DNA of 64,000 nt from an uncultured archaeon (GTDB lineage: Archaea; Asgardarchaeota; Lokiarchaeia; Sigyniarchaeales; SOKP01), in the NCBI GenBank assembly GCA_964388035.1, contig CAYLZE010000007.1:48246-112245 (forward strand). The letters run 5' to 3'. The translations under genes were made by a program, and so were the position numbers. Below the pieces are notes generated by a model. The model was not told where the DNA came from and made no database searches. It worked only from the letters and a program-made list of their open reading frames with translations. How positions within the stretch are numbered: the stretch's first letter is position 1; every line of letters starts with the position of its first letter. Shown piece after piece: positions 15,922 through 44,311 of the stretch.

Positions 15922-17505
15922 TTATCTTCTTTCTTGAGAGAAGTTAAGGATATAATTTTTAACTAAATAATTTGGAACAGCGAATTCGGCAGTTCCTCTT
16001 TCAATTGCTTCTCGGGGCATTCCATATAAAACAGCCGTTTCACTTGATTCTGCAATAGTTTTTCCTCCTGCCTTTTTGATGGCACCCAAGCCTGCAACTC
16101 CGTCCGCCCCCATTCCGGTGAGCAGAATGCCCATGGCTCGATGTTTAAAAACTTTTGCAACAGAATAAAATAAAACATCGATTGAAGGCAGACAATAGTT
16201 TACAGGGGTTCCCTTATAAATTCTAATACTTGGCTTTAGTCCAGATAAAGTAATCTCCATGTGCCTATTCCCTGGGGCAATGTATACATTTCCAGATTTG
16301 ATTTCTTGGTTATTTTGGGCAAGGTGTATTGTCATTTTACCAAAATTGTTTAAAAATTGAACAAACGAATCAACAAATCCTGCATTTAAATGCTGTACTA
16401 TTAAGATAGGGCAGGATAAATTTCCAGGAAGCTCTTTAAGGATTGATATTAATGTTCGAGGGCCGCCAAGGCTCGCACCGATTGCAATTATATTTGATTT
16501 TAACTCAATGGTATCCGGATGTTGACTTGTCTGAGAAGAAGGGAATTCTTGGGTGACCTGATTCTCGAGTGAAGCATATAAAGCTTTTAAAGGTGATGCA
16601 CTTTTTTCCTGTACTTTTTCCTCGAGTTCTTTATTATTATCGAGGATTATTGATATTTCATCAATCTGAATTTGAGGAGGAGCAGAATTCCTCTTTTTGG
16701 AGCTTACTTTTTTAATTATGGGCTGCTTTCTTTCTTCTTTTTTGAATTCAGTTTGATGAGCTTTCTCAATATTTTTTAACTTTTTTATAGAAATTTGGTT
16801 TTCATTTTTGAAGTAAGAAAGAGGTTTTTTCTCGGCAGAAATTTGTTGAAATATCTCATTAACAAGCTTTTGTCTTAAAGGCAAAAAAGAATTGCTTTTT
16901 GATGCATTCTTTTTTTCTTTTGAAATTAAAGAGTTTGTATCCATCTCTATTTCTTGACTATCACTTGATTTCCATCGAGTAGATCCAAAAAGTGGATGGG
17001 CCCTATTGAGATACTGCCCGAATTTGAAAATATCATTGATATTGCGTTGCCTTAAGGTTTGTAATTTTTTAACTTTTAATTCTTTGGTATCATACACTCT
17101 TTTTATTTGCGATTGACAGGCCAAAATTACTTTATTCAATAACTCTTCTTTAAAATTGGGAACCTCCATTGCACCCAAACCTCCTGGTTTAATAATATAA
17201 TCAAAGGCTCCTAGTAATAAGGCTTGGACACTGGCGTTCATATTTTTTGGATTTATTGCAGATAATATAATCGTTGGCAAGGGATTTTCTTCCATGATTT
17301 CTCTAAACGCATCTAATCCACTCAATAGAGGCATGATGAGATCCAAGAGCAAAACGTCTGGTTTGTGTTCTTTAACTTTTTCAATGGCCTCTAATCCATT
17401 TTGGGCTTCTGCTATAACATTTATCTCAATTTGACTTGATAAGATGTTTCTCAAGACTTTTCTCATGAATTTAGAATCATCCGCGATAATTACCTTTATC
17501 TCCAT
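15922..17505 (-). CDS. cheB: Chemotaxis response-regulator methylesterase CheB with ~200-aa linker
   Basis: REC domain (IADDS, LLDLIMP, FDYIIKP); methylesterase triad GASLGGP, VQHL, LTGMGADG, YGMP. Confidence 0.95.
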   Translation of the reverse strand: MEIKVIIADDSKFMRKVLRNILSSQIEINVIAEAQNGLEAIEKVKEHKPDVLLLDLIMPLLSGLDAFREIMEENPLPTIILSAINPKNMNASVQALLLGAFDYIIKPGGLGAMEVPNFKEELLNKVILACQSQIKRVYDTKELKVKKLQTLRQRNINDIFKFGQYLNRAHPLFGSTRWKSSDSQEIEMDTNSLISKEKKNASKSNSFLPLRQKLVNEIFQQISAEKKPLSYFKNENQISIKKLKNIEKAHQTEFKKEERKQPIIKKVSSKKRNSAPPQIQIDEISIILDNNKELEEKVQEKSASPLKALYASLENQVTQEFPSSQTSQHPDTIELKSNIIAIGASLGGPRTLISILKELPGNLSCPILIVQHLNAGFVDSFVQFLNNFGKMTIHLAQNNQEIKSGNVYIAPGNRHMEITLSGLKPSIRIYKGTPVNYCLPSIDVLFYSVAKVFKHRAMGILLTGMGADGVAGLGAIKKAGGKTIAESSETAVLYGMPREAIERGTAEFAVPNYLVKNYILNFSQERR

Positions 17506-17771: not shown

Positions 17772-18725
17772 TTAGATGCAATTTGTAGCTAAAAAAGTGA
17801 ATACCTCGTCTAATCCTTCTCCTGTGTGAGCAGAGGTTTCAAAAAAAAAACAATTATTATGAGATGCAATGCTTTCTGCCTTTTGCTTAAGTTGGTCTCT
17901 ATTTTTGGCTAAATCTATTTTATTTCCCACTAATAAATAAGTCACCGCCTTATTTCCAACAAATTGCCGAGCTTCTTCAATCCATTCATTAATCGTGTTT
18001 AAAGTTTCTTCACGAGTATAATCAAATAGAATAATTACCGTATTTGCATCATTATAGAAAAATCTTCTAACCTTAGAAAAGCTTTTAAGCCCTCCCAAGT
18101 CAAAAAATATGAGACATATCTTTAATCTATTAGTTATTTGTAATTCTTTTTCTGCTAGAGAAACTCCTATCGTCGGCTTATAATTATCTATAAATTCGCC
18201 ATTGATGTACATGTTTAATAGACATGTTTTTCCACAATTTTCCGGACCAATTAATAAGAGTTTATTTACTTTACTTTTTCCCTCATCGGATACATCTATA
18301 TCCTTGGGAATAAAATTACCGGTAGAATTTAATTTGGGTAATTCTGTGGATGTCTGAATATTATTTAGAATGAGGGAGACCTTCTCTGCTACTAAGTAAG
18401 AATATGAAGTTAAACTCTCTATTTTTGAATAGGGGTCAGCAACTAGTACAAATAACCCAGTGCCTCCCAGTTCTAAGTAAAACAACCTAAACTCATTTGT
18501 GTCAAACGTGCCACTTCCGTAGGAAGTCTCAGCAAATCTTTTAATTTTGCTTAATGTTTGTTCCAAAACGCTCATGATAGCTCCAATTATCTCCTCATTA
18601 AAGCCTTCTACCGATTGTTGTGCAATAATTAAACCTTCCAAATCAACTACTAGCGCAGCTTGGAGATCACTAGCTTCATTAAGCAAATTTGCTAATAATT
18701 CGTTTAATAAGGGAGCTTTTTGCAT
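17772..18725 (-). CDS. Roadblock/LC7 domain fused to a Rab/Ras-like small GTPase
   Basis: N-terminal AALVVDLEGLIIA...IIGAIMS roadblock pattern; GPENCGKT, YKPTIG, DLGG, GNKID, ETSAHTGEGLDEVF. Confidence 0.9.
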   Translation of the reverse strand: MQKAPLLNELLANLLNEASDLQAALVVDLEGLIIAQQSVEGFNEEIIGAIMSVLEQTLSKIKRFAETSYGSGTFDTNEFRLFYLELGGTGLFVLVADPYSKIESLTSYSYLVAEKVSLILNNIQTSTELPKLNSTGNFIPKDIDVSDEGKSKVNKLLLIGPENCGKTCLLNMYINGEFIDNYKPTIGVSLAEKELQITNRLKICLIFFDLGGLKSFSKVRRFFYNDANTVIILFDYTREETLNTINEWIEEARQFVGNKAVTYLLVGNKIDLAKNRDQLKQKAESIASHNNCFFFETSAHTGEGLDEVFTFLATNCI

Positions 18726-20357: not shown

Positions 20358-20389
20358 TCTTTCATTTATCTCATTTTTTGGAGTTAGTA

Positions 20390-22624: not shown

Positions 22625-22642
22625 TGTTTTATCCCTAACTGT

Positions 22643-23275: not shown

Positions 23276-23289
23276 ACACGAACACCTCG

Positions 23290-24684: not shown

Positions 24685-24736
24685 TTTCCCTCATCTATTC
24701 TGATTTTTTTCATTTTTAACATTACTCATCCTTTTC

Positions 24737-27284: not shown

Positions 27285-27288
27285 CTTT

Positions 27289-27923: not shown

Positions 27924-27940
27924 TTTTTTTCAATCCTCAA

Positions 27941-29002: not shown

Positions 29003-29123
29003 AAGATAACACCACGATTACATTTTTTAAAATAAATAATAAATAATTTTTATCTCCTTAGCAATTGGTAGAGGTATAATACATTAGAATGTTAAAAATT
29101 ATAGCATGTTTCTATTAGCTAAG

Positions 29124-31501: not shown

Positions 31502-32545
31502 TTAAGCAAATAGAATTATTTTTAATATAGCGTAAGTTGAATAATAAAAAATTAAGATAAGTGATTCCCGAACAGTTAAAGTATTATCAGTCCATAGAAA
31601 AATAAGACTTAAGAAAATTGCTCCCAATAAAAGAGGAATATCAAACCATATTAAAGAGGGGGGAACGATAAAATCTACTATTATTGCACCTGATCCAGTA
31701 GCTAATAAAATATCACAGATATTTGATCCAAGGATATCTCCTATCGCAATTCCGGAAGATTTTCTTTTTAAAGCGGTTAAATCAGCTACTAGTTCTGGTA
31801 AACTTGTACCTACTCCAACCAGAAATAACCCTATAATGTATTGGGGGATCTGTAATATTTTTGCTAATTCATGTGCATTTAGAACAGTCAATTCTGCGCC
31901 GATTAATAAGATAGTTAATCCTAATAAAAAGATTAATAGATTCCTAAAAACTTTATTCTTAATATCTGGTATGTCTTGCTTATTTTCCACATTTTTTATA
32001 ATGGCAGAAGATTCATCCTCAATTTTTTCTTTTAAAGCCAAATATTTACGAACTTCTTTTTCCGCTCGTTCGTTTTTTTTTTCACTCCAAATTATAAAAA
32101 TTAAAAATAAAAAATAAGAGACAATATAGATAATTGCATCTATTCTTGAAATGATTCCATCCATCGCACAGAAAAAAAATATAGCAAGGGCCACGATCAT
32201 CATCAATCCTTCCCGTTTTAGTTCCCATTTTGAAACAAAGATGGCTTGAGTCAATCCCAATATCCCTAAAATTAAACTTATTTGTGCGAAGAATGATCCT
32301 ACTTTATTTCCTATTACGATACCATCAATTGTGGGATCCAATCCCGTTACTTTATCAAAAGCACCCATTACACTAACTGCAATTTCGGGAAAGCTCGTTC
32401 CTATAGAAAGAATAGTCAGACCTATAAGAATATGACTAATCCCAAACTTTTTTGCTATGTTTTCTAAACTAATCACGGTTAATTTTGCTCCATAAAACAA
32501 ACATATTAGCCCTAAAAAGAGAAACAAAATCGTATTTACAATCAT
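31502..32545 (-). CDS. Na+/Ca2+ exchanger (CaCA, YrbG/NCX_Mj type)
   Basis: Alpha-repeats GTSFPE and GTSLPE, GNKVGS and GDILGSNICD, about 10 TM. ATG at 32545 preferred over the TTG at 32590. Confidence 0.93.
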   Translation of the reverse strand: MIVNTILFLFLGLICLFYGAKLTVISLENIAKKFGISHILIGLTILSIGTSFPEIAVSVMGAFDKVTGLDPTIDGIVIGNKVGSFFAQISLILGILGLTQAIFVSKWELKREGLMMIVALAIFFFCAMDGIISRIDAIIYIVSYFLFLIFIIWSEKKNERAEKEVRKYLALKEKIEDESSAIIKNVENKQDIPDIKNKVFRNLLIFLLGLTILLIGAELTVLNAHELAKILQIPQYIIGLFLVGVGTSLPELVADLTALKRKSSGIAIGDILGSNICDILLATGSGAIIVDFIVPPSLIWFDIPLLLGAIFLSLIFLWTDNTLTVRESLILIFYYSTYAILKIILFA

Positions 32546-32797
32546 TATTGCTTTAATATACAATACTTTTTTAAAAATTTTGAAAAGCAAAAAGCACTAA
32601 AATTATTATTTCTTAATTGGTTTCATATTCACAATTATCAAATAGATTAATAAATATTTTGAATTCCAATAAACATGGATAATTTGTGACAAAATAAAAA
32701 TTAAGGTCAATAATTTTTTAATACTATCATCAAAGACTCAAAAATATCCTTTATGTTAAAATAATTAATAAGCAGATTAAGGAAAATTGATAATAAT

Positions 32798-33319
32798 TTA
32801 TTTAATGATTTTCTGAATTTCGACAATCCTTTTCGAAATGTGTTCTAGTGAATATTTAATATGATTTTGCATTTCAATTATTTCTGATAATATTTTATTA
32901 ATATGGGTTTTTTGAGAATTTGATAAGGATTTTTGCATTTGTGAGGATTTTATGGAATTCTGCGGATTCTCTTCTTTTTTTACGATAAAAGTTCTGGATT
33001 CTCCAGGATATTTAAGATCCACGCGTCCTTCAATAATTTCATTATAAATTGGGATAAATTCTTCTGGCTCACGACCTTGCTTGATTAATTCATATTGATA
33101 ATCATAATATTGCTTTTTACCTTTTAATTTTCCCGCCCAATTCGAAGCGATATAACGATGAAAGAGCCGGGATTTTTGCCCTGCCCATAACCATATGGTT
33201 TTAATGGTCTTATCTATAATTAGATAGACACCTTCAGGCTCAAAAAAAGTAGTGATTTCATTTGATAAAGATTCCCCGTCAATAATATAACAATATTCTG
33301 AATATTCCTTGCTTAACAT
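32798..33319 (-). CDS. Single gelsolin-domain protein with C-terminal coiled coil
   Basis: VYLIID...TIWLWAGQKS....RYIA...A.KL...LIKQGREPEEF matches the gelsolin repeat (xILD..IxxWxG..S...QG.EP.EF). Confidence 0.82.
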   Translation of the reverse strand: MLSKEYSEYCYIIDGESLSNEITTFFEPEGVYLIIDKTIKTIWLWAGQKSRLFHRYIASNWAGKLKGKKQYYDYQYELIKQGREPEEFIPIYNEIIEGRVDLKYPGESRTFIVKKEENPQNSIKSSQMQKSLSNSQKTHINKILSEIIEMQNHIKYSLEHISKRIVEIQKIIK

Positions 33320-33514
33320 TTTATTCTCTCTCCTTTGCTAATTAAAAAATTAATCTAAAAATTCCTAATTAAATTTAACGTAAAGAAAAGGCACTTGTAA
33401 TAAAGAAAAAATAAATAATAGCTATTTAAATTAGGGAAATTAATCGTTAAATTGCTAAAAGGTACTGATTTTAAGTATATCAAGATTAAAAAAAGAAAAT
33501 AAAGTGATAATTTA

Positions 33515-35449
33515 TTATTCATAAAACTGTTCCAATGCCAATAGTAAGTCCTTGAGGGTGCTTAGATCCGGTATGAAGAGAAAAGTCCCAACCATTTTTA
33601 TGTCCGTTATCAATACATTCGTCGTAATAACCAAGGATAATTTCTTTAAGAGCCCGATTTCTTTTTGTAATATTTTAAATAATTGCTTACCTGTATCAAC
33701 GCTAATATCGGGAGGTTCGGTCATTAATCTTAAATTAAGAAGATCACCAATCGCGTTAGCATAATGGCTGGCTAAGATGTGTCCCAATTCTTTCATAGCA
33801 TCTTCATAAATTTCTGGAATATCTTTTACAGCTTCGATCTTTTTTCGCATATCTATCTTCTTTTTATCCTTATCGTCTATGATAATCGATGTGAGATCAA
33901 TGAAATCTTTAATTTTGAAGATCGATAATACCGTTGCCCTCGTTTTTCCTATGACATTACTCCAAGCGATAAAGAGTTTTTCATTTTTCTTACTAATTTC
34001 ATTAGCATATTTATCCAATTCTACCATTTCTACCGATGGTATATTGATATCCACTCTTTTATTGATCATTTTGGCTAATGCATTAGCCGCATTGCCCGCC
34101 CCCATATTTCCTACTTCTTGAAGGGCATCCCTTTGTAATTCAGTCAATTCTATTACCTCTATCTCTTTTTCCACAGTATCATTTTTAATTCCTTTAATTA
34201 ATGGTTCATAATCTATTTGAAGCTTGTCGAAAAAGTTGTAAAGCGTGTTGATATCGGGAATAAAGAAAAACACACCATTCAACCTTAAGTCCACCACCTT
34301 AATGGAAGTCTTGATAATCACTACAAAATCCGCAATGGCATTTATTTCTGAGCCTAAAAATTCTCCTAGCGATCCAACATTAGTTAAAGCAAATTCGGGC
34401 TTTTCAAGCATCATTTTCATTTTTGTTAAATCCGCTAATGCAGAAACGTAATGTCCCGCCATGATATTACCCATTTCTTCAATAGTAGAGATGGCAAAAT
34501 CATCCAAATCTTCTTTTCCATTAACTTTACTTGGGTCTACTTTTGTATCCTTGCCCGCTAAACTCGCCACCAATTTCATTAATGGTCTCACTTCAAATAC
34601 TTGAAGTATTGTCGATTCCGAAGGTCCTTTAATTTTTGAGAAAATACCGCAGATTTTTTCTTGAATTCCTCCAAATTGGTTACTAAGTTGTTCAAAGGTA
34701 ATTATTCCGACATCTGTCAAGTCGACATCAATTTTTTTCTTTATCAATCGAGAAAGAGCGGTAATTGCATTACCGGAACCGATATTCCCGATTTCTTTCA
34801 ATGTATCTTTTTGATATTCAGTTAGCTTCAAATCCACTTCAGTTGCGTTCGAACCCCGCTTAAATGCAAGAGGTTTCGGTTCAGGATGAGGAATTCTTGG
34901 GATAAAATCTTCTTCTTGTGGAATTTGCTTAAATTCTCCTTGATTGACCTCTTTTTTATTGGGGAGCGACACAGGTTTAGGTGCCATGGTTCTAAGGGAG
35001 GGGGGGACAATTGCATCTAGGTCTAATAAAATGTACGTCGTATCATCCAATACTCCTACCGATTTGATAAACCTGTAATCAATATAAGTCTCAATAATAG
35101 TACTCTTTGTCTCAAAAATCGAGAGGGGAAGCTTTTTTACGCCTATGACTTCATCTATCAATAAAGCAATTTTCAAATTACCCATTTCTAAAAGTACAAT
35201 TCTTGACTTTTCGGTTAATTCATAATCTGTTACTTTTTCATATAATTTATGCCGTAGGGAAATGATGGTATAAATTTCTCCTCGAATATCAATGAGACCT
35301 AATATACTTTTATCTGCTAAGGGAACGGGAACAATATTCTCTTTAGGAATGAAAATTTCCTTCACATTCTTTACTTGTAGCAAATAATTTTCATTCCTTA
35401 CTTTGATGATGATTGTATTCACGTTCTTGACTTCTTCTGACTCGATCAT
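33515..35449 (-). CDS. CheW-CheC-CheC fusion protein
   Basis: CheW domain (VPVP...ILGLIDIRGEI..IISLR, LLIDEVIGV), Pro-rich linker, two CheC domains (LKEIGNIGSGNA/IEEMGNI; LQEVGNMGAGNA/MKELGHI). Confidence 0.92.
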   Translation of the reverse strand: MIESEEVKNVNTIIIKVRNENYLLQVKNVKEIFIPKENIVPVPLADKSILGLIDIRGEIYTIISLRHKLYEKVTDYELTEKSRIVLLEMGNLKIALLIDEVIGVKKLPLSIFETKSTIIETYIDYRFIKSVGVLDDTTYILLDLDAIVPPSLRTMAPKPVSLPNKKEVNQGEFKQIPQEEDFIPRIPHPEPKPLAFKRGSNATEVDLKLTEYQKDTLKEIGNIGSGNAITALSRLIKKKIDVDLTDVGIITFEQLSNQFGGIQEKICGIFSKIKGPSESTILQVFEVRPLMKLVASLAGKDTKVDPSKVNGKEDLDDFAISTIEEMGNIMAGHYVSALADLTKMKMMLEKPEFALTNVGSLGEFLGSEINAIADFVVIIKTSIKVVDLRLNGVFFFIPDINTLYNFFDKLQIDYEPLIKGIKNDTVEKEIEVIELTELQRDALQEVGNMGAGNAANALAKMINKRVDINIPSVEMVELDKYANEISKKNEKLFIAWSNVIGKTRATVLSIFKIKDFIDLTSIIIDDKDKKKIDMRKKIEAVKDIPEIYEDAMKELGHILASHYANAIGDLLNLRLMTEPPDISVDTGKQLFKILQKEIGLLKKLSLVITTNVLITDIKMVGTFLFIPDLSTLKDLLLALEQFYE

Positions 35450-35488
35450 ATTTTTTACCTCTTTCTTTCAATTGTTTTTTTTAGATTT

Positions 35489-36322
35489 TCACGTTTTTAT
35501 CATAATACCTTTCCAAATTAATTCAATAACTTGTTCTTGTTCTTTTACCACTTCAGAAAAATAACCTATTTGCCGGAAGATAGCAATTTGCCCTCCATCT
35601 GACATCTTATAAATGTAATCCAATAAGTCTTGAATATCCCCGAAATTAAACCCTGCAATCTTAAATTGTTCCACATCGTTAAGCATGACGATTATTAAAT
35701 CTTCCCCATTAAAATTTTTTTCAGGATCCATGTACTCTACCCATAATTCGGGATAAATTGTTTTTTGTTTCAAGTTAAAGGCTTCATTGATAGGTATGTT
35801 TCTAAAAGTCTTATTGGTAGCAATGATGACTCGATCCGGTTCAATATTTGAGACCGTACCATAAGTGATGATATTATTAATGGTTTCCATGTAAAGAGAT
35901 AAATCTAAAGTATCGCAACACGTAATGAAAATTATTTTATCATCTTTATCTTGAACGCCAAAATCGATATCATTACTTTCTAAATCCAATTTAATAGATT
36001 CTATATTCATTTTTTTTGTATATTTTAGATATTTATATAATCGCCATTTAATGGCCTTTCTATCATTTAATTCCTTACTTATGAAGATTTTGTATAACAG
36101 TTCAAGTTGAGCATGATTTAATTTGGAAAGATTCTCATTATTTCCAAATTCGCCGGTTAGTTCATAATACCTTTCTTTAGATATTTTATCATTTTCACCT
36201 GCTAGATCATTCAGAATTACCGAAATTTCTCCTGCAGTAAAGCCGGGAGTAATTCTTTTTAATAATTCTCTCAAAAAGTCATCTGATTTATCATACAAGG
36301 TGTCATAATATTGATAATTCAT
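35489..36322 (-). CDS. Uncharacterised cytoplasmic protein within the che operon
   Basis: 277-aa ORF, short spacers to both neighbours, GGAG SD; central IDFGVQDKDDKIIFITC segment weakly resembles a restriction-endonuclease-like fold. Confidence 0.7.
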   Translation of the reverse strand: MNYQYYDTLYDKSDDFLRELLKRITPGFTAGEISVILNDLAGENDKISKERYYELTGEFGNNENLSKLNHAQLELLYKIFISKELNDRKAIKWRLYKYLKYTKKMNIESIKLDLESNDIDFGVQDKDDKIIFITCCDTLDLSLYMETINNIITYGTVSNIEPDRVIIATNKTFRNIPINEAFNLKQKTIYPELWVEYMDPEKNFNGEDLIIVMLNDVEQFKIAGFNFGDIQDLLDYIYKMSDGGQIAIFRQIGYFSEVVKEQEQVIELIWKGIMIKT

Positions 36323-36355
36323 TTGTTATCTTTCTCCTAATATTCTTTATTATAT

Positions 36356-39300
36356 TTATCCAAAAATAAAAGATTCTAATTCATCATATTCTATTTCTTT
36401 ATCATCCATTTTTTTCACATAATAACGAATTTCCTTTTCTTGATAAGGTTGAATTTTTTCTATAGTAAATAATATCGTGTCGCCTTTTTCTGCTTTAGAT
36501 TTTTCCAATTCATAATTAATATTGGAGGAAATAAACTTAAATGATTTTGAGAGGGTATCCTTAATAATTACCTCCTCTACATCTACATCCGAATTATTCC
36601 GGACTATCACGCTGATTCCGAATTCATTTAATTCTCTTCCGGGAAAAATTTCCTTACCAATCAATAAATCCCTGCGCTTATGAATTACCTTTAACTGGGG
36701 TAATAACTTTGACGGCACGCTACTTTGAATGATATAATATAATATTTCCGCTTCCTTTTCGTGCTGGTGAATATATGGGAAGTAAATGGTATAGTCCAAG
36801 GGAAAATTATATGCTTTTTTATGGTTTGGAGTAATTGCCTTTAAAGGATACTTTATCTCGAGAAAATCATCGACGTCCATTAATATAGATTGACTATCTT
36901 TTTGGAGATTCAAGGATAATTCTAGTTGATGAGATTTCGTAGGATCCTTATCATAAGGTATGATATTCACTTTGATAATATTTGAACTTATCTTACCCGA
37001 AGAATTCCTAACTTGGAATTCTGAGCTATCAAAAGAAGGAAGAAAATCCGAGGGAATCATTTCAATCAGATTCATGCTCTTAATTGCAATTGTACCGAGA
37101 TTTTTGATCATGACGACATTCTGCAGGACGTTCTCTTCAAAAGATTTTATTTCATGCTGAGAGAATTTTTTGTCTATGCGTAAATCAGCAATATCAAAAT
37201 AGCGATCATCGAATTTGAGAGAAACAATAGATCTTTTCTCGATTTGATAAGTTACTCCGTATTCTAATTTTCGGTAAAACTTCGGTTCTTTTAAACTTTC
37301 AACCATCCACCCTTCGCTTTCGTATTGGGAACCGGGATGAATTATGCTTGTTGAATCATTCGAATCAAAATGTAGATCTAAATAATTTTGTTTTCTATTT
37401 TCATCAACAACGTTTATTGATTTTAATAGAATATTAAAATCGCTATTATTTAGAAATGTGAGAAAACAGTGCCACTTATTAGGTTCTTCCTCCATTTCTT
37501 TTAAATTCATAGCATGCATCACGTGAGAATACCCTGAAAAATTCTCAATATCTAATCCAGAAATCAGTTGGCTTTTATAAAGATAAGAGATTTGAACTGT
37601 CCCTGTACTGATAATCTTTCTTTCGGAGGGATATATTTCTACAAAAATAATAATTTCTGCTTTTGCCCCGGGTTTTAACTCATTTAATGTACAAAATAAG
37701 GTCCTATTTTCAATTTCAATTCCTTGTACAGCATCACTTTTATATTTAAAATCATAAAAATCTTCAGAGAATAACTTTCCTAATTTTATATCCGTAATAA
37801 TACTATCAGATACATTTTCAAGCTTAAGGGTAAACTTGACGGAATTTTTCTGATTAAATAATAACAATAATTTATTTTTTGCCTCATAGCTCTCTAATTT
37901 TTCCACATGTTCCAAAAAGGAAGACTTTTTTGCGTCCTCCTCTTTATAAATTTCTTCTAATTTCTCTTTTAAGGTGAATTCTCTTTTATCCTCATAATCT
38001 TGAACTTCATTTTTGAGATTAATTATTTTTGATTCTAGCTCATTTTTTTCCTGAAATAATTCGCTGGATTGGTCACAAACTTTGTTATATTCTTTCTTCA
38101 TCTCGTTTAACTTGGATCTGAATTCTTCTAAAGTTGTATCATGTTTATTAATAATGGAATCAATTTTCTTGTCGAACTCTTCTTTAATAACGACATTATT
38201 TCTTAGGCTCTTTATTTCCTCATCTTCTAATTTCGAGAGTTCTCTCCCTTCTTTGTCTATTAGGTTTTCTTTAGTAGCAACCAGCTCTTCAAATATTTTT
38301 CTCTTTTGTTTAACTAGATTATCCAAATTTTTTCTTTTTTCTTCCCATTGATCAAGTTCTTTATTAAATTTTTCATAAAAAGACTCTTCGCTTTCAAGCT
38401 TTTTTTCAAGATCATCAAGACTCTCTTGAAATTTTTTTTCTACTTCAGCTGAGTCTAATCCTTCTTTTTCTGCATTTTTCAGTTCTTTTGATTTATCTTT
38501 CAATAATGATTTTTGATTTTTTGATAAGTCTTTAATTAAAGTCTTTTTATCTTTATTAGTCTGTTTTAACTTATCCGCCTTTTCTAAGGCATCTTTCAAA
38601 TCTTTTTCATTTTTATCTAATTCTAATTGAATAGCCTTAATTTGTGGATCATATTCCTTATTTAAATCTGATATTATTTTATTTTTCTTTTCTTGAAAAT
38701 TAATTTTCGTTTTCTCAATCCGGTTATTCAATTCTGACAATTCTTCTTGATTTTTGACCTTAAGTGTCTTAAGGTCCATTTCTTTTTCAATCGGATGACT
38801 TTCACTTAAATCTTTCAAGTATTTAATTTGAAGCTCTATCTTTTTTTGTACTATATTATTTATTTCATTTTCATTCTGTTCAATTAAATTGCTTAACTGT
38901 TCTTTTTGATTAGAAATATTATTAAATTGTTTCATTACATCACTATAATATTCTTCCTTAGAACTCACATCTGATTTTAACTTTCCCAGTTTTGTATCAA
39001 AATTCTTAGCGATTTCTTCATTTAGCTCGTCTTGTTTCTTGGAGGTTTGCTTTTTAATCTTTTCAATTTCTTCCTCCTTATTTTCAAAACGAAGCTTTTT
39101 TATCTCAACATTAGTAACTTCTATAGTTTCGGTTAATTTTAATGGAGGAGCAAGTTCCTTAGTATCAATTAAGCTATAATTAACATTTTTAGTACTTCGG
39201 GGTTCAAAATTACCTAAACTGATAGTATTTCCTCCTTCCAAGTTAATATTATTCATTCCAGTGAGTGTAAGTTTTGAATCCCATACTCTATCCTTTTTTG

Positions 39301-39550
39301 AACTATTTAATGCTCTTATTACTCCTGTACCAGAAAAATTGGTTAAATTTTTTTCTTTATCATAAATATATTCAATAATTTCTTCACATAATAGAGAAAA
39401 GTCTGAAAATAATTCTATACTTTCTTTCTTTATTTCGCTTTCTCCTTGCTGCAACTTTTCTATAATTTCCATCCTTCTAATTGGCATTCCAATAAATGCT
39501 GAAGCGATACTTGTTTCTAAATCCTTAATAGTCACGTGTTTAAATCCCAT
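36356..39550 (-). CDS. Large cytoplasmic protein: several Ig-like (DUF11-like) beta-sandwiches interrupted by a ~400-aa coiled coil
   Basis: Repeated xxVxNxS..I..x.I.D/E.I/LP..F strand patterns; K/E-rich heptad region at residues ~150-555; no signal peptide or TM; GGAGG SD. Confidence 0.7.
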   Translation of the reverse strand: MGFKHVTIKDLETSIASAFIGMPIRRMEIIEKLQQGESEIKKESIELFSDFSLLCEEIIEYIYDKEKNLTNFSGTGVIRALNSSKKDRVWDSKLTLTGMNNINLEGGNTISLGNFEPRSTKNVNYSLIDTKELAPPLKLTETIEVTNVEIKKLRFENKEEEIEKIKKQTSKKQDELNEEIAKNFDTKLGKLKSDVSSKEEYYSDVMKQFNNISNQKEQLSNLIEQNENEINNIVQKKIELQIKYLKDLSESHPIEKEMDLKTLKVKNQEELSELNNRIEKTKINFQEKKNKIISDLNKEYDPQIKAIQLELDKNEKDLKDALEKADKLKQTNKDKKTLIKDLSKNQKSLLKDKSKELKNAEKEGLDSAEVEKKFQESLDDLEKKLESEESFYEKFNKELDQWEEKRKNLDNLVKQKRKIFEELVATKENLIDKEGRELSKLEDEEIKSLRNNVVIKEEFDKKIDSIINKHDTTLEEFRSKLNEMKKEYNKVCDQSSELFQEKNELESKIINLKNEVQDYEDKREFTLKEKLEEIYKEEDAKKSSFLEHVEKLESYEAKNKLLLLFNQKNSVKFTLKLENVSDSIITDIKLGKLFSEDFYDFKYKSDAVQGIEIENRTLFCTLNELKPGAKAEIIIFVEIYPSERKIISTGTVQISYLYKSQLISGLDIENFSGYSHVMHAMNLKEMEEEPNKWHCFLTFLNNSDFNILLKSINVVDENRKQNYLDLHFDSNDSTSIIHPGSQYESEGWMVESLKEPKFYRKLEYGVTYQIEKRSIVSLKFDDRYFDIADLRIDKKFSQHEIKSFEENVLQNVVMIKNLGTIAIKSMNLIEMIPSDFLPSFDSSEFQVRNSSGKISSNIIKVNIIPYDKDPTKSHQLELSLNLQKDSQSILMDVDDFLEIKYPLKAITPNHKKAYNFPLDYTIYFPYIHQHEKEAEILYYIIQSSVPSKLLPQLKVIHKRRDLLIGKEIFPGRELNEFGISVIVRNNSDVDVEEVIIKDTLSKSFKFISSNINYELEKSKAEKGDTILFTIEKIQPYQEKEIRYYVKKMDDKEIEYDELESFIFG

Positions 39551-39606
39551 AGGTTAATCCTCCATTTTTTTAAATTCTTGTCATTTTAAAAAATTGTTTT
39601 TTTAAT

Positions 39607-41757
39607 TTAAGATGCATCAATTGATTCTAGTTTCTCAAATACATGAGTAATTGAAGAAATGATGTTTGGCACATCAAGAACAATACAGATTGATCCATCA
39701 CCGGTAATCGTCACTCCCAATATTTCCTTAAAAGAAGAGTATTTTGATCTAAACGGTTTTATCACCAAATCCATTTGTTGCAGAATTTCATCTATTATGA
39801 ATATTGCTGAATCTTTTTCATCTTTATTACAATAGATTGCAATTTTTCCTTTAGATTCTGCATCGGATTTAACTCTTTCTTGTTTTTCATCATCTTTTGG
39901 AACTTCAGGACTTTCGATTGAAGGATCTGTTGTGAGAATTAAGTCCTCTATTTTTTCTTGTTCCATTTGTGTTGAAATATTTAAATATCGGTCTAATCTG
40001 ACGATGGGTACTAAATCAGAACCAAGACGGTAATATTCTTCACCTTTCACGTATTCTACCAACTCACGAGAAAAGAAATAAATTTGATTGATATTTTCAA
40101 TGGGAATCGCATAGAGATCTCCAGCCACTTTAAACATTTGAGCTTTTAAAATAGCTCTTGAAAAAGGCACGGTCAGCGAAAAGATAGTTCCTTTCCCAGG
40201 AGTAGAAGCTAAGTTAAGAGAACCTCCGAGTTCCTTGATTTTTTCGGCAACTATAGCAAGACCCATCCCTCTCCCCGAAATCAGATCTGCGCTGGATAAT
40301 GTTGAAAATCCGGGAGTGAATAACACTTTTTTAAGATCACTTTCGGAGAGTTCCGTTGCTTCTTCGGGGGTATATAATCCTAATTCTATTGCTTTAGTTC
40401 TTGTTCTTTCATAATCTATTCCCTTACCATCATCTTCTATTTGGATGATTACTGAACCGGCTCTTCTAAAGGTTTTAAGTTTAAGGTTCCCCATTCCCGA
40501 TTTTCCCAGGCTCCTTCTAATATCAGGGGTTTCAATTCCGTGATAAATAGCATTCCTTAAGAGATGAATCAAAGGACTATTTAATTGTTCAAGAATCTTC
40601 CTATCAATCTCTACATCCGTTCCTTCCAACAAGAATTTCACATTTTTATTCGTTTCTTTTGAAACATCCCGGACCAATCGTCTATATCTTCTAAATGCTG
40701 ATTCTACACGCACAAGTTTTAACTTAAAAATGATCTCTTGTATTTCTAAAAATAACTTATCCATGCTATCAAAGTAGCGATTCACCCCCCAATCTCCACG
40801 TGAAGAAAGAATTTGACTTAATTGATTTTTAATAATAATGACTTCTCCAAAATAATCCATGAGTTCTTCTAATGTTTCTATATTTACCTTAACAGACGTG
40901 ATTCTTCCCAATTCATCTTCAAAAGAACCAGTTGTGCTGGGAACTCTATCAATACCTTTTTGTTCAATGACTTGCTCTTCTCTCCGAGCATCTTTTTTCA
41001 ATTTAGAATTGGCCTCTAATAAAACATCTTTGAATTGCTTAGACGAAAGGGGTGCAATTGATTTATTTTCAATTTCTAAGATTTCATCTAACACTTGCGT
41101 TATTTTTTTCGAATCATGCTCCGTAAGATAATAGATTGCCAATTTGAGGTCAAACTGACCATTTTCTAATAAATATGGTTCTGGATCACTCCAATATATT
41201 TGACCAATCTCATTTAACGCCCTAAAAATAATAAACAATCTAACTTTTTTAAATACGCAGGTAGATTGTAATTCTATTGTTATTTTATAAAACCTATTTT
41301 TTTTATTGGTGGTCAATGAGTCTATTTGATCATTGGGAATGGTTTTAATAAAGGTAATTTCATAATCCGATTGAAATTCTTCAAATCCTTCTTTTAATTC
41401 TTTAACCATTCTATCATCTATATCTTTAATTTCTCCTGCCTTGGCCTGCTTAGTTACAAGTCTCAAAACATCTAGACTTTCGAACATCAATTCTACTATT
41501 TCCCGGGATTTATTGGCTGATACTTCTTCTTCCTTTGCTTTATCAAGTAAATTCTCAAAATTATGACAAAATTCGGAGAGATTGTCTAATCCGACCATGG
41601 CAGTCATTCCTTTTAATGTATGGAATGTAAAATATAAATTCTGGATTGCTTTTTTATTATCTGGATTTTCCTCTAAATTTAACACGTTATCTTCAATAGT
41701 CTGAACTAAATCTTCTGTCTCCGAAAGGAAGATTTTCATATCTTCATTTGACGCCAT
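39607..41757 (-). CDS. cheA: Chemotaxis histidine kinase CheA
   Basis: Hpt FHTLKGM, P2 domain, HLLRNAIYHGIE, EDDGKGID, PGFST, SGRGMGL, C-terminal CheW-like P5 domain. Confidence 0.97.
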   Translation of the reverse strand: MASNEDMKIFLSETEDLVQTIEDNVLNLEENPDNKKAIQNLYFTFHTLKGMTAMVGLDNLSEFCHNFENLLDKAKEEEVSANKSREIVELMFESLDVLRLVTKQAKAGEIKDIDDRMVKELKEGFEEFQSDYEITFIKTIPNDQIDSLTTNKKNRFYKITIELQSTCVFKKVRLFIIFRALNEIGQIYWSDPEPYLLENGQFDLKLAIYYLTEHDSKKITQVLDEILEIENKSIAPLSSKQFKDVLLEANSKLKKDARREEQVIEQKGIDRVPSTTGSFEDELGRITSVKVNIETLEELMDYFGEVIIIKNQLSQILSSRGDWGVNRYFDSMDKLFLEIQEIIFKLKLVRVESAFRRYRRLVRDVSKETNKNVKFLLEGTDVEIDRKILEQLNSPLIHLLRNAIYHGIETPDIRRSLGKSGMGNLKLKTFRRAGSVIIQIEDDGKGIDYERTRTKAIELGLYTPEEATELSESDLKKVLFTPGFSTLSSADLISGRGMGLAIVAEKIKELGGSLNLASTPGKGTIFSLTVPFSRAILKAQMFKVAGDLYAIPIENINQIYFFSRELVEYVKGEEYYRLGSDLVPIVRLDRYLNISTQMEQEKIEDLILTTDPSIESPEVPKDDEKQERVKSDAESKGKIAIYCNKDEKDSAIFIIDEILQQMDLVIKPFRSKYSSFKEILGVTITGDGSICIVLDVPNIISSITHVFEKLESIDAS

Positions 41758-41799
41758 ATCTTACATCAACTCTTTTATTTACCTATTAATTCTTATTTT

Positions 41800-42177
41800 T
41801 TATTTTTTTAACAATCTTTCCAAGACTTCCTCTACTTGTTCATTTTTAAAAGGTTTTTGAATAAAATCTTTAGCACCTTTTTTTGCTGCTTCTAACACTA
41901 ATGCTTCCTGACCCAATGCAGACACCACCACAATGATTGCATTTTTATCAAGCTTTAACAATTCTTCAGTAGTCTCTATTCCCCCTTTTTCAGGCATAAC
42001 TAAATCCATGGTGACCAAATCAGGCTTCAACTTTTTATATAGTGTAATGGCCTCATTCCCATTTACAGCCTCTCCCACCACTTCAGTATAAGCCGTATTA
42101 TCTATAATTTTCTTTAACATGTTGCGGGTGAAAGCAGCATCGTCCACGATAAGAACCCTTTTTTTGTTATTTGACAT
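41800..42177 (-). CDS. cheY: Chemotaxis response regulator CheY
   Basis: VLIVDDAAF.R, PDLVTMDLVMP, SALGQ, GAKDFIQKPF (Bacillus/archaeal type). Confidence 0.97.
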   Translation of the reverse strand: MSNNKKRVLIVDDAAFTRNMLKKIIDNTAYTEVVGEAVNGNEAITLYKKLKPDLVTMDLVMPEKGGIETTEELLKLDKNAIIVVVSALGQEALVLEAAKKGAKDFIQKPFKNEQVEEVLERLLKK

Positions 42178-42231
42178 TTTTGTTAACGCCTCTATTTATT
42201 GATTTTTATTTTTTATGGTTTTTAATTTAAA

Positions 42232-42753
42232 TTAAATAATAGATTTTTGATCTTGTTGAAGAGAAATTTGTTCTGCTTCTGATAATATTTCGCGTAAATC
42301 TATGAGAATTCTCGGTCTATCCTTGAATTTAACCACGCTTTTTATGTATTTAATATCACTAAGACCCGTCTGAAAAATTGGACTCAGTCCAACCAAGTCT
42401 TTTCTGGTGATGTGAGAAACCTTAATGATCCGATCTACATAGAAGCCAATTTGCATGTCCCGTATATTCACTATAATGATAAATTTCTTTCCTGAATCGT
42501 TTTTATCGTTTAAATTTTGAGCTTTATAAATGTCATAATCATCCAAATTCAATTTCTTTTTTAAATTAATAATGTGAATGATATTACCCCTGTAATTGTA
42601 AATACCTTCTATAAAATCTAGGCTCTTGGGTAATCTTCTAATTTGCCCGGTTTGAATAATTTCTTTAACATCCAAAAGATCTATCACAAATTCCTCCCAT
42701 CCTACTTTAAAAATAATTAAGGAAATCTGTTCTTCAAGCTGTTGTTCTCCCAT
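42232..42753 (-). CDS. cheW: Chemotaxis coupling protein CheW
   Basis: IIFKVG.EEF.ID...VKEII, LPKS.DFIEGI.N.RGNII.IINL, GFYVDRI. Confidence 0.95.
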   Translation of the reverse strand: MGEQQLEEQISLIIFKVGWEEFVIDLLDVKEIIQTGQIRRLPKSLDFIEGIYNYRGNIIHIINLKKKLNLDDYDIYKAQNLNDKNDSGKKFIIIVNIRDMQIGFYVDRIIKVSHITRKDLVGLSPIFQTGLSDIKYIKSVVKFKDRPRILIDLREILSEAEQISLQQDQKSII

Positions 42754-42993
42754 TTTCTATACCATCCTTAAATTTTACTCAATTATTATTATTAAATTTT
42801 AAATTATTCTCATTTTATTTCTTGATAAATTTTTCAACCATAATCAATTCTTTATTTCAATAATCTTAAATTTCATTTCTACAAAATATTTTTATCCACA
42901 TTATCCAATAAAATAAAATATAAATGGAAATTAATCCAAATTTAAAAAAATTTTTTTCATTCGATGAACCTGAGGTCCATCCTTATTTATTAA

Positions 42994-43989
42994 TCATTTT
43001 GTTACCTTTGCTTCAGCACTTGCTTTCTGTTCAACAGCATGAATATCCAATGTTTTCTTCAACTCATCTGCTAAAGTACCGAGTCTATTAGCGGTAGCTG
43101 CGATGTCATCCATAGATGCTTTTTGTTGATCTGTTGCCTTCATAACTGCCTCGATGTTTTCTTCATTTTCTTCTTCATGATGTTCGACATCTTCAATCTC
43201 CTGAGTAACTGCATCAATGGCAGTGGTAGTTCCTTCGATTAAACTTTCAATAAGGTCTATATTTTTTGATGATTTAGAAACCGATCCTTTTGATTCTTCC
43301 GCGAGCTTTCTTACTTCATCGGCTACTACTGCAAATCCACGACCATGCTCCCCCGCCCTTCCCGCTTCAATGCTTGCATTAAGGGCTAACAGATCCGTTT
43401 GTTCAGATATTTTTGTAATGATTTCCATGACTTGATCAATATCTTTAGTATGGGTGATTATTTCATGAGCATTTTTATCGATGGTTTCTGAGTGACTCTC
43501 TATTTCTTTTAAGGCCTTTACTTGTGCCACGGTTGCATTATCTAATTTATGCATCCTTTCGGTGATTTCACCTGCTGTTGCGTCAACCTGTGTAGCACTT
43601 GCAGATAATTCTGCTGCGATGCTGGACACATTAATAGCGACTTCTTCGGCATGATCAACGATAGATTCCATGGAAAATTCTTTTTGTGCAAGTTCTTCCA
43701 TTGTTTGAATTAATCTATATTCAATCATAACAACTAATCCTGTAGATAAGATTAGAACTGCTGATGCTAAACTCATCAGATCAGAAATTACATCTGCCAT
43801 TCCTGCTTCAGTAAAAATTGCTATTCCATTCCATCCAAATCCAATGGTGAGATTCAAGAATAAAATCATAATTAAAAGCCGACTCAAGCTACTAGTATTG
43901 CGTCGATATGCATCGATCATTAACATAGCACTAATGCCAAAAAAGACAGCTCCCATAATAAACATTAGACCTGAAAATACATCTACCAT
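42994..43989 (-). CDS. Methyl-accepting chemotaxis protein with a 3-TM N-terminus
   Basis: [40 protein letters not shown] hairpin tip; three N-terminal TM helices. Confidence 0.95.
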
Positions 43990-43990
43990 G

Positions 43991-44311
43991 TTATTTACCT
44001 CCTCTTACGGATGATTCTTGAGTTGTCGTTTCGGTTTTCTTTAAAGCCACACGCCTATAATATACGACCCCGACCAGGGAAAATATTCCCGCGAGAAAGA
44101 AACATAATGCTTCTACTGTGGGATTGCCAAGATACATGAATAAAACTGAACCAGCCATCGAAAGGAATGTGAGAAGAAATATGCGCAATTCAGGTTTTCT
44201 ATAAGCATTGATTATAAATATAATGATCCCTAAGATGTAATAGATTAAAACCATTGGATCTATAAATGCCATTATTGCTGATTCTTCAGCTGTTGCTGTT
44301 TGTAATATCAT
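43991..44311 (-). CDS. Small 3-TM membrane protein, translationally coupled to the MCP
   Basis: Three hydrophobic helices; GGAGGTAAA-TAA-C-ATG junction to the MCP; GAGGTG SD. Confidence 0.8.

What the first reader, a model, noticed from the sequence alone, without database searches (positions are those of the whole stretch)
31502..44311. Candidate chemotaxis-to-actin system: che cluster with no archaellum output, ending in gelsolin and a Ca2+ exchanger
Seen: ten co-oriented genes: 3TM partner, MCP, cheW, cheY, cheA, 1064-aa Ig/coiled-coil protein, 277-aa unknown, CheW-CheC-CheC, gelsolin-coiled-coil protein, Na+/Ca2+ exchanger. No cheF, arl/fla or pilus gene occurs in 64 kb (nor cheR/cheD). 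Known: in characterised archaea CheY-P signals through CheF to the archaellum, and che and arl genes usually cluster; cultured Lokiarchaeia form long protrusions that contain actin filaments in at least one species, and Asgard gelsolins regulate actin, some in a Ca2+-dependent way. Inference: a Bacillus/archaeal-type Che pathway rewired to control actin-based protrusion or crawling, with the two unknown proteins replacing CheF as output adaptors. Caveat: gelsolin and the exchanger are each separated by ~200-250 nt and may have their own promoters.
Basis: partly seen in the sequence, partly recalled or inferred. Interest (0 to 1): 0.9.

Follow-up and report, generated by a model that had tools for sequence, protein, structure and literature searches.

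The report
Asgard chemotaxis operon with built-in gelsolin
A Loki-type Asgard archaeon with no swimming motor has a single chemotaxis gene cluster that, across about 40 related genomes, always includes its own gelsolin-like gene and usually a Ras-type switch gene, so these are untested candidates for how such cells steer actin-based crawling.

Summary
Ten co-oriented genes lie at 31502-44311: a 3TM protein, MCP, CheW, CheY, CheA, a 1064-aa beta-sandwich/coiled-coil protein (BIG), a 277-aa orphan (U277), CheW-CheC-CheC, a gelsolin-domain protein (Gel) and a Na+/Ca2+ exchanger.

This is the genome's only che cluster and only MCP. CheF, archaellin and ArlJ are undetectable in it and in its whole GTDB family.

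- **Gelsolin linkage:** In 37 of 37 informative loci (at least 8 genera, 3 families) Gel directly follows CheW-CheC-CheC.
- **Position in relatives:** there Gel lies inside the operon, followed by cheR-cheB-cheD-cheC, a Roadblock-Ras GTPase and a second cheB.
that GTPase and cheB are in this window at 15922-18725. About 13 kb of inserted DNA, including an ATP-synthase operon and the exchanger, separates them from the rest.
- **Exchanger:** it is not a conserved member.
- **CheR and CheD:** they exist as one fusion gene on another contig.

Neither actin binding by Gel nor a CheY-P target was shown; the one complex job was not folded.

This scan has already reported the same operon family on other genomes. 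No paper I found describes it.

Verdict: a new variant of a chemosensory system with a likely cytoskeletal or polarity output. The mechanism is unproven.

The parts
43991..44311 (-). 106-aa three-TM membrane protein, upstream partner of the MCP
   Evidence: ORF; sequence; no Pfam family. Not traced in relatives.
42994..43989 (-). MCP, 331 aa, with three N-terminal TM helices and no periplasmic domain; the only MCP in the genome
   Evidence: PF00015 at 1e-31; sequence; single genome hit.
42232..42753 (-). CheW
   Evidence: PF01584 at 1.6e-25.
41800..42177 (-). CheY, stand-alone receiver with the acceptor residues present (DD, D, S, K)
   Evidence: PF00072; sequence; median 77% identity to orthologues, the most conserved gene of the cluster.
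39607..41757 (-). CheA (Hpt-P2-dimerisation-HATPase-CheW)
36356..39550 (-). BIG: N-terminal beta domain, a ~400-aa coiled-coil insert (long form only), then ~500 aa of beta-sandwich domains. Its N-terminal 'MGFK' peptide is nearly invariant across orthologues.
   Evidence: Short-form orthologue model has pLDDT 81 and is all-beta. Foldseek gives generic Ig arrays plus a local match to the AP mu-homology domain. It follows cheA in every locus that covers that position.
35489..36322 (-). U277: orphan protein with a restriction-endonuclease-like core, probably non-catalytic
   Evidence: Model pLDDT 90. VIA Z 8.7 to 1y88 and 8.6 to the Card1 nuclease domain. Foldseek finds nothing at E <= 1e-3. Only 68 representative clusters among 1.84 billion proteins. 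Every homologue with readable gene context (the ~50 surveyed loci and a distant homologue) lies between BIG and CheW-CheC.
33515..35449 (-). CheW-CheC-CheC fusion, a CheY-P phosphatase tethered to the receptor array
   Evidence: PF01584 plus three PF04509 stretches; NCBIfam CheC at 2.6e-59.
32798..33319 (-). Gel: a divergent gelsolin/cofilin-type domain (~1-110), a variable linker, and a conserved C-terminal helix (~135-173). This is the architecture of 1DGelX.
   Evidence: It directly follows CheW-CheC-CheC in 37 of 37 informative loci. It has an RBS-like AAGGAG before the ATG. Database members are named 'hypothetical protein' and carry no Pfam domain.
17772..18725 (-). Roadblock/LC7 + Ras-family GTPase fusion, 317 aa, orthologue of the GTPase built into the che operon of relatives
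   Evidence: PF00071 at 5.8e-37 and PF03259 at 23.3 bits. 54% identity to the operon copy against 38% for the next paralogue. P-loop and NKxD are intact and the catalytic Gln is replaced by Leu/Ile in most orthologues.
15922..17505 (-). CheB2 (receiver + methylesterase, 527 aa), the terminal gene of the ancestral cluster, next to EF-2 as in relatives
   Evidence: PF01339 at 5e-57 and PF00072; synteny RblRas-CheB2|EF-2|formyltransferase is shared with L066.

Best explanation
This is the local, rearranged copy of a conserved Lokiarchaeial chemosensory system that does not act on an archaellum. Shown: a complete Bacillus/archaeal-type core is present. It comprises one intramembrane MCP, CheW, CheA, CheY, an array-tethered CheC phosphatase, CheB, and CheR-CheD elsewhere in the genome. 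It is inherited together with five non-Che genes: BIG, U277, a gelsolin-domain protein with a C-terminal helix, a Roadblock-Ras GTPase, and a ~270-aa longin/roadblock-like protein. Inferred: CheA phosphorylates CheY in response to the single receptor. CheY-P, whose lifetime is set by the tethered CheC domains, then acts on one or more of these built-in proteins rather than on CheF. The effectors are the gelsolin-domain protein, acting on Lokiactin filaments by severing, capping or bundling as 1DGelX does, and the Roadblock-Ras switch, which would set polarity as in the MglB/MglA logic. Together they would bias protrusion dynamics or crawling direction. BIG and U277 are more likely scaffold or array accessories than the effectors. 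The Na+/Ca2+ exchanger belongs to the inserted ATP-synthase block, not to the system.
For: Core identities. Only che cluster and only MCP in the genome. No CheF or archaellin in the genome. CheF was found in 1 of 400 genomes of the phylum and archaellin above cut-off in 3 of 400, none of them among the 46 genomes with U277. ArlJ of a related Lokiarchaeon (G138, 6.04 Mb single contig) gives no credible hit in 134 family genomes. Synteny: x273-cheW-cheY-cheA-BIG-U277-cheWCC-Gel-(cheR-cheB-cheD-cheC)-RblRas-cheB2 recurs across at least 8 genera in 3 GTDB families. The Gel-to-cheR gap has a median of 11 nt, so Gel lies inside the operon in relatives. When the cluster broke in this lineage, Gel stayed with cheWCC and RblRas stayed with cheB2. 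Gel is as conserved as CheA (median 50% identity each). Gel matches solved actin-binding Asgard gelsolins. The genome encodes Lokiactin and three ARPs. Published context: Lokiactin-dependent crawling in two cultured Asgard species, with no steering pathway named (PMC13716822). Thor 1DGelX, a gelsolin domain plus a coiled-coil domain, severs actin without Ca2+ (PMC7444086). Chemoreceptor arrays were seen in L. ossiferum (PMC9834061).
Against: There is no direct evidence that Gel binds actin. The gelsolin fold also occurs in a protein not shown to bind actin (Sec23, noted in PMC7444086), and this subfamily is below Pfam's Gelsolin cut-off. No CheY-P target has been identified. The cultured crawler L. 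ossiferum (taken to be G138) has three che clusters and an archaellum locus but none of BIG, U277 or Gel, so crawling does not need this module. In this window Gel is 195 nt from cheWCC, with T-rich runs in between, and may have its own promoter. Conserved gene order among related genomes is not independent evidence of a functional link. The sister species of the same genus lacks CheA altogether, so the system is dispensable.
Confidence: 0.38

Rival explanations
1. The system is an 'alternative cellular function' chemosensory pathway with a non-cytoskeletal output, for example membrane trafficking, vesicle or surface remodelling through the Roadblock-Ras and longin-like proteins, or cell-cell interaction. 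In this reading the gelsolin-fold protein is a structural adaptor that does not touch actin.
For: The built-in genes include a Ras-family GTPase with a Roadblock domain and a protein with weak longin/roadblock signals. Fuz_longin_1 matches 4 of 23 members (best E 5e-5), and dynein roadblock chains match at E ~0.2. Gel is a divergent gelsolin domain below Pfam's cut-off. BIG has a local fold match to adaptor mu-homology domains (4ikn, TMt 0.70).
Against: Gel's best matches are the actin-bound Asgard gelsolins, CapG and villin. The full CheR/CheB/CheC/CheD adaptation set is typical of taxis-type temporal sensing.
Confidence: 0.3
2. Gel is an ordinary actin regulator, and RblRas an ordinary GTPase, that merely share transcription or a neighbourhood with the che genes. 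No signal passes from CheY to them, and the true output is unknown or lies elsewhere.
For: There is a conserved ~110-nt gap before Gel in relatives and 195 nt here, which leaves room for a separate promoter. The genome has at least six other gelsolin-domain ORFs and dozens of Ras-like genes.
Against: The members of this Gel subfamily that were traced (39 loci) all lie in che clusters wherever the context is readable, 37 of 37. The 223 database members were not traced individually. In relatives Gel is followed at ~11 nt by cheR. Adjacency survived a rearrangement that removed everything downstream.
Confidence: 0.17
3. The output is an unrecognised type-IV-filament-like machine, a pilus or a divergent archaellum. 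The candidate is the T2SSE-type ATPase with a neighbouring polytopic membrane protein on contig C26.
For: The genome has a 726-aa T2SSE ATPase next to a 509-aa multi-TM protein. Che-like systems steer type IV pili in bacteria (general knowledge).
Against: That ATPase is family-wide and does not track the che cluster: it is present in 28 of 39 genomes with the cluster and 73 of 95 without (my count). It gives no hit in the single-contig assembly G188 (about 90% complete), which has the cluster. It lies beside ribosomal protein L3. No pilin or archaellin was detected. The second T2SSE hit is a PIN-domain ATPase.
Confidence: 0.08
4. Ca2+ link: the exchanger sets local Ca2+, which gates the gelsolin.
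For: A Na_Ca_ex gene lies 207 nt downstream and co-oriented here. Exchanger genes also neighbour Gel in the closest relatives, with three paralogues in one of them. Some Asgard gelsolins are Ca2+-controlled (PMC7444086).
Against: In the two closest relatives with intact copies the exchangers are on the opposite strand, and in G151 only fragments remain. About 35 other loci have cheR, cheB, cheD or RblRas after Gel instead. The exchangers travel with the inserted ATP-synthase block. ProGel, the closest solved relative, has no Ca2+ sites, and 1DGelX acts without Ca2+ (PMC7444086).
Confidence: 0.05

Closest known systems
Archaeal (Bacillus-like) chemotaxis pathway: MCP-CheW-CheA-CheY with CheR/B/C/D, then CheY-P to CheF to ArlCDE and the archaellum (Halobacterium, Haloferax)
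   Same: The same signalling core and adaptation enzymes, and a stand-alone CheY with intact acceptor residues.
   Different: No CheF, archaellin or ArlJ in the genome or its family. There is one MCP only. CheC is fused to CheW. Five non-Che genes are built in.
Myxococcus xanthus Frz chemosensory pathway acting on the MglA (Ras-like GTPase) / MglB (Roadblock) polarity switch
   Same: A Che-type pathway genetically coupled to a Ras-family GTPase and a Roadblock domain, in an organism that moves on surfaces without flagella. This is a resemblance in logic, drawn from general knowledge.
   Different: Here the Roadblock and GTPase are one polypeptide encoded inside the che operon. Orthology to MglA/B was not tested. 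The catalytic Gln is replaced by Leu/Ile. An actin-type rather than MreB-type cytoskeleton and a gelsolin-domain gene are involved.
Asgard gelsolins ProGel / 1DGelX / 2DGel (Akil et al. 2020, PMC7444086; PDB 7c2f, 7c2g, 7c2h)
   Same: Gel's domain matches ProGel and 2DGel by sequence. Its layout, one gelsolin domain plus a C-terminal helical or coiled-coil part, is that of 1DGelX, which severs actin independently of Ca2+.
   Different: Gel is a separate, divergent subfamily, at 15.7 bits against Pfam Gelsolin and named 'hypothetical protein' in databases. In every traced locus with readable context it is encoded in a che cluster. No che linkage has been reported for the characterised gelsolins. 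Actin binding was not tested.
Eukaryotic chemotaxis (receptor to Ras/Rho-family GTPases to actin regulators such as gelsolin/cofilin)
   Same: The proposed end point: small-GTPase and gelsolin-type control of actin-based crawling (general knowledge).
   Different: The sensor is a prokaryotic MCP/CheA/CheY phosphorelay, not a GPCR. No homology of the upstream pathway is claimed.

Membership tests
Archaeal chemotaxis system with archaellar output | MCP, CheW, CheA and CheY core | tested here: met
   Pfam hits all above cut-off.
Archaeal chemotaxis system with archaellar output | Adaptation enzymes CheR, CheB, CheC, CheD | tested here: met
   CheB at 15922-17505; CheC domains in the CheW fusion; CheR-CheD fusion on contig C24.
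Archaeal chemotaxis system with archaellar output | CheF adaptor | tested here: not met
   PF04283 gives no hit in the 96.7%-complete genome although the controls ring. It hits 1 of 400 genomes in the phylum.
Archaeal chemotaxis system with archaellar output | Archaellum genes (archaellin, ArlJ) | tested here: not met
   PF01917 gives no hit. ArlJ of a related Lokiarchaeon gives no credible hit in 135 family genomes. The two T2SSE hits are a family-wide ATPase and a PIN-ATPase.
Gelsolin/cofilin-domain proteins (Asgard ProGel / 1DGelX type) | Sequence similarity to gelsolin domains | tested here: met
   7c2f_B at E 2.7e-6 as a single sequence and 1.6e-7 as a profile; also 2DGel, CapG and villin. 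Pfam PF00626 gives only 15.7 bits against a cut-off of 21.
Gelsolin/cofilin-domain proteins (Asgard ProGel / 1DGelX type) | 1DGelX layout: one gelsolin domain followed by a coiled-coil 'domain X' | tested here: inconclusive
   There is a conserved C-terminal ~40-residue segment after a variable linker, with only a weak coiled-coil match (3vyi, E 0.15).
Gelsolin/cofilin-domain proteins (Asgard ProGel / 1DGelX type) | Binds actin | not testable with these tools
   The complex job (Lokiactin with Gel 1-112) was not folded under a tool rule. This needs biochemistry.
Frz-MglA/MglB-type chemosensory polarity control | Ras-family GTPase plus Roadblock domain genetically linked to che genes | tested here: met
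   PF00071 at 5.8e-37 and PF03259 at 23.3 bits (cut-off 23). The orthologue is present in about two thirds of the surveyed loci, between cheC and cheB2 or directly after Gel.
Frz-MglA/MglB-type chemosensory polarity control | Orthology to MglA/MglB and a polarity function | not tested
   No phylogeny against MglA/B was made. Function needs experiments.
PD-(D/E)xK nuclease superfamily (for U277) | Restriction-endonuclease-like fold with the catalytic D...(D/E)xK motif | tested here: inconclusive
   The core, residues 85-198, aligns to 1y88 (Z 8.7, rmsd 2.2, 97 residues) and to the Card1 and Can2 nuclease domains (Z 8.6 and 7.5). That is in the range the tool calls middling. Among the invariant columns of the alignment I found no (D/E)xK motif after D120.

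The most novel reading that the evidence does not exclude
A prokaryotic MCP-CheA-CheY phosphorelay directly steers a eukaryote-like actin cytoskeleton through a dedicated gelsolin-domain protein and a Roadblock-Ras switch. That would be directed (chemotactic) amoeboid crawling in the archaeal relatives of eukaryotes, with a signalling-to-actin link that predates eukaryogenesis.
Probability: 0.2. Interest if true: 0.95.

Novelty: new variant of a known kind. Interest (0 to 1): 0.74.

Why it matters
Actin-dependent crawling of Asgard archaea was shown in 2026 (PMC13716822). That paper names no steering pathway and does not mention chemotaxis genes. Earlier work noted che genes and receptor arrays in Lokiarchaeia without an output (PMC9834061). 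This operon family supplies concrete candidates: one gelsolin-domain protein, one Roadblock-Ras GTPase and three orphan proteins, all inherited with a che core in genomes that have no archaellum. If the link is real, it joins a bacterial-type phosphorelay to eukaryote-type cytoskeletal regulators in the lineage nearest to eukaryotes. If it is not, the cluster still defines a new class of archaellum-independent archaeal chemosensory system, with components that databases currently call 'hypothetical protein'.

Tried and rejected
- **Complex prediction:** the job pairing the genome's Lokiactin (L097:1474-2715:+) with Gel residues 1-112 (alignment A1) was counted but not folded under a tool rule. 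It gives no evidence either way, and I did not try it by another route.
- **Foldseek for U277:** nothing at E <= 1e-3. Only VIA-align gave a nuclease-like core.
- **Foldseek for BIG:** only generic Ig-array matches plus a local match to the mu-homology domain. I do not build on this.
- **NCBIfam and Pfam:** they name none of Gel, U277, BIG, the ~270-aa protein or the 3TM partner.
- **Type-IV-filament output:** rejected because the C26 ATPase does not co-vary with the cluster.
- **Ca2+ exchanger as a member:** rejected on synteny and orientation.
- **Promoter and terminator scan around Gel:** uninformative. The counts equal those of shuffled sequence, and the tool does not model archaeal promoters.
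- **Literature searches:** searches linking Asgard che genes to gelsolin, Roadblock or small GTPases found no paper describing the arrangement.
- **Idea not pursued:** the nearly invariant, disordered N-terminal 'MGFK...' peptide of BIG could be a CheY-P docking peptite in the manner of FliM-N. I could not test it.
Full report
**1. What is in the window**

Ten ORFs lie head to tail on the minus strand between 31502 and 44311.

- Pfam identifies an MCP signalling domain, CheW, a stand-alone receiver (CheY), a full CheA, a CheW domain fused to CheC domains (three CheC stretches), and a Na+/Ca2+ exchanger.
- CheY keeps its acceptor residues.
- The MCP has three N-terminal membrane helices and no periplasmic domain.
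- The first gene is a 106-aa three-helix membrane protein.
- The 1064-aa protein (BIG) has one DUF11 repeat match and a long charged heptad-rich middle.
- The 277-aa protein (U277) and the 173-aa protein match no Pfam family above cut-off.

**2. The gelsolin call**

Pfam Gelsolin scores only 15.7 bits against a cut-off of 21. The protein does match the solved Thorarchaeota ProGel (7c2f_B) at E 2.7e-6. A profile of 14 orthologues matches ProGel at 1.6e-7, and also 2DGel, Heimdall and Loki 2DGel, CapG and villin.

The family has three parts: a conserved domain (~1-110), a variable linker, and a conserved C-terminal helix of about 40 residues. This is the layout that Akil et al. call 1DGelX, a gelsolin domain plus a predicted coiled-coil 'domain X'. 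Thor 1DGelX severs actin without Ca2+, and ProGel lacks the Ca2+ sites (PMC7444086).

In public databases the 223 detectable members carry no Pfam domain, and those that are named at all are called 'hypothetical protein'.

**3. No archaellar output**

The assembly has 5.47 Mb in 211 contigs, is 96.7% complete and has 7.3% contamination.

| Search | Result |
|---|---|
| CheF-arch in own genome | no hit, controls ring |
| Arch_flagellin in own genome | no hit, controls ring |
| CheW domains in own genome | all in this window |
| MCPs in own genome | one |
| CheF across 400 genomes of the phylum | 1 genome |
| Archaellin above cut-off across the same 400 | 3 genomes, none among the 46 with U277 |

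One of the three archaellin-bearing genomes is G138, a 6,035,313-bp single contig that I take to be Ca. L. ossiferum by its size. It has an ordered locus of ArlF/G-like, ArlH, ArlI and ArlJ genes. Its ArlJ finds nothing credible in 135 genomes of the window's family.

Two T2SSE-type ATPases exist in the genome.

- One is a PIN-domain ATPase.
- The other lies beside ribosomal protein L3 with a 509-aa polytopic membrane neighbour.
  - It is present in 101 of 134 family genomes.
  - By my count, that is 28 of 39 genomes with the cluster and 73 of 95 without, so it does not track the cluster.

**4. Conserved synteny, the key result**

U277 homologues occur in 46 of 400 genomes of the phylum, 39 of them among the 134 genomes of the same family. 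I fetched 20 such loci and annotated them with the window's proteins. The order cheW-cheY-cheA-BIG-U277-cheWCC-Gel recurred.

A separate scan for the Gel subfamily across one genome per species returned 39 loci, all in Promethearchaeota-type MAGs.

- In all 37 with upstream DNA, the gene before Gel is the CheW-CheC fusion.
- Many of these 39 are the same contigs as the first 20, so the number of distinct genomes is about 45.
- They span at least 8 genera in 3 GTDB families.

In the commonest form (for example L066) the operon reads, in order: a ~270-aa protein, cheW, cheY, cheA, BIG, U277, cheWCC, Gel, cheR, cheB, cheD, cheC, a Roadblock-Ras GTPase, and a second cheB. EF-2 and a formyltransferase follow on the other strand.

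The gap from Gel to cheR has a median of 11 nt, and the gap from cheWCC to Gel about 110 nt. In genera with the long form of BIG, Gel is followed directly by the GTPase.

**5.

The orthologous Roadblock-Ras gene (17772-18725) has 54% identity to the operon copy, against 38% for the next paralogue in the genome. The second cheB lies at 15922-17505. Both sit next to EF-2 (13509-15698) and the formyltransferase (12628-13260), exactly as at the end of the cluster in relatives.

Between them and Gel lie four things:

- an LCIB-type carbonic anhydrase;
- the A-type ATP-synthase operon (19908-29504);
- a 499-aa orphan on the plus strand;
- the Na+/Ca2+ exchanger.

So the ancestral cluster was split by about 13 kb that replaced cheR-cheB-cheD-cheC. 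The same insertion is seen in the two closest relatives, whose Gel is 57-58% identical. There the exchanger genes, one in one genome and three in the other, lie on the opposite strand to Gel. In G151 only exchanger fragments remain.

The exchanger therefore travels with the ATP-synthase block and is not a conserved member of the system. CheR and CheD are present as one 674-aa fusion on contig C24. The ~270-aa gene lies on contig C50.

**6. The orphan proteins**

- **U277.**
  - It folds confidently (pLDDT 90, pTM 0.88).
  - Its core, residues 85-198, resembles the restriction-endonuclease fold: Z 8.7 to 1y88, 8.6 to Card1 and 8.1 to NucS.
  - Foldseek found nothing at E <= 1e-3, and I found no (D/E)xK motif among the invariant columns.
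  - I read it as a non-catalytic interaction module, with low confidence.
  - The family is tiny, 68 representative clusters among 1.84 billion proteins.
  - Even a distant member (E 1e-13) sits between a large orphan and a CheW-CheC fusion in a che cluster that has no Gel.
- **BIG.**
  - A short-form orthologue folds as a string of beta-sandwich domains after a disordered N-terminus whose 'MGFK' start is nearly invariant.
  - Matches are generic Ig arrays, plus a local match to adaptor mu-homology domains.
- **The ~270-aa protein.** It gives only weak longin/roadblock signals.
- **The GTPase.** Its P-loop and NKxD motifs are intact, but a hydrophobic residue replaces the catalytic Gln in most of the 24 distinct orthologues.

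**7. Interpretation**

BIG-U277-CheWCC is an old trio of Loki-type che clusters. Gel, the Roadblock-Ras protein and the ~270-aa protein are additions found in the window's family and two neighbouring families.

G138 has three che clusters and an archaellum locus but none of BIG, U277 or Gel. One genome with the divergent trio does have a CheF hit. So 'BIG and U277 replace CheF' is not established.

The strongest inference is narrower. Gel and the GTPase are dedicated components of an archaellum-independent chemosensory system, and by homology their most likely targets are Lokiactin filaments and a polarity or trafficking switch. The genome has Lokiactin and three ARPs and at least six other gelsolin-domain ORFs.

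Published work shows Lokiactin-dependent crawling in two cultured Asgard species and names gelsolins and profilins as likely regulators. It does not mention chemotaxis (PMC13716822). Che genes and receptor arrays in Lokiarchaeia are in print without an output (PMC9834061).

**8. Limits**

- Actin binding and CheY-P binding are untested, and the single complex job was not folded.
- Related genomes are not independent samples.
- The system is patchy, present in 39 of 134 family genomes, and the sister species lacks CheA.
- In this window Gel may have its own promoter.

**9. Relation to earlier notes of this scan**

The same operon family was reported before on several other genomes, with the same reading. 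One note cites a later check that priced the bold reading at 12 in 100. I took two leads from those notes, the crawling paper and the longin idea, and checked both myself.

New for this window are three points: the split by the ATP-synthase insertion, the relocation of cheR-cheD and the ~270-aa gene, and the rejection of the exchanger as a member.

Noticed in passing
window 2782-5151 (+): A 789-aa protein combining PCI, DDRGK and UFM1-ligase-like winged-helix regions with a C-terminal VPS28 domain. This is an ESCRT-I/Vps28-type eukaryotic signature protein with an unusual N-terminal part.
   Followed up: no
window 18840-29504 (-): An LCIB-type beta-carbonic anhydrase, a zinc-ribbon membrane protein and a complete A-type ATP-synthase operon lie between the two halves of the che cluster. 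The same block, with one to three Na_Ca_ex genes, follows Gel in the two closest relatives.
   Followed up: partly
L103:6023-8047 (-) = own genome contig C24: CheR and CheD are fused into one 674-aa protein, far from the che cluster. A long CheR of 736 aa follows Gel in another family (L038/L093).
   Followed up: partly
window 36356-39550 (-), N-terminus; alignments A3 and A4: BIG starts with a nearly invariant 'MGFK' and a conserved but disordered first ~50 residues. This could be a docking peptide. It was not tested.
   Followed up: no
L035 and L071 (G188, single-contig genome CP070831.1): In this single-contig genome the cluster is in two places: cheY-cheA-BIG-U277 near 0.36 Mb, and cheWCC-Gel-cheR-cheB-cheD-cheC-RblRas-cheB2 near 1.44 Mb. 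Gel again stays with cheWCC.
   Followed up: partly
L101:5454-9747 (-) = own genome contig C26: A 726-aa T2SSE-type ATPase with a 509-aa polytopic membrane neighbour and two small orphans lies beside ribosomal protein L3. It is present in 101 of 134 family genomes. Its function is unknown.
   Followed up: partly
window 51336-52346 (+): A small histidine kinase (HisKA + HATPase_c, 336 aa). I did not compare the pairs.
   Followed up: no
window 48485-49372 (-) and 58189-59292 (+): An inositol-trisphosphate-kinase-like ATP-grasp protein and a myo-inositol-1-phosphate synthase lie within 10 kb of each other.
   Followed up: no
window 54998-57814 (-) and 29941-31440 (+): Two large ORFs, 938 aa and 499 aa, have no Pfam or NCBIfam match. 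The 499-aa one is conserved next to the ATP-synthase block in relatives.
   Followed up: no
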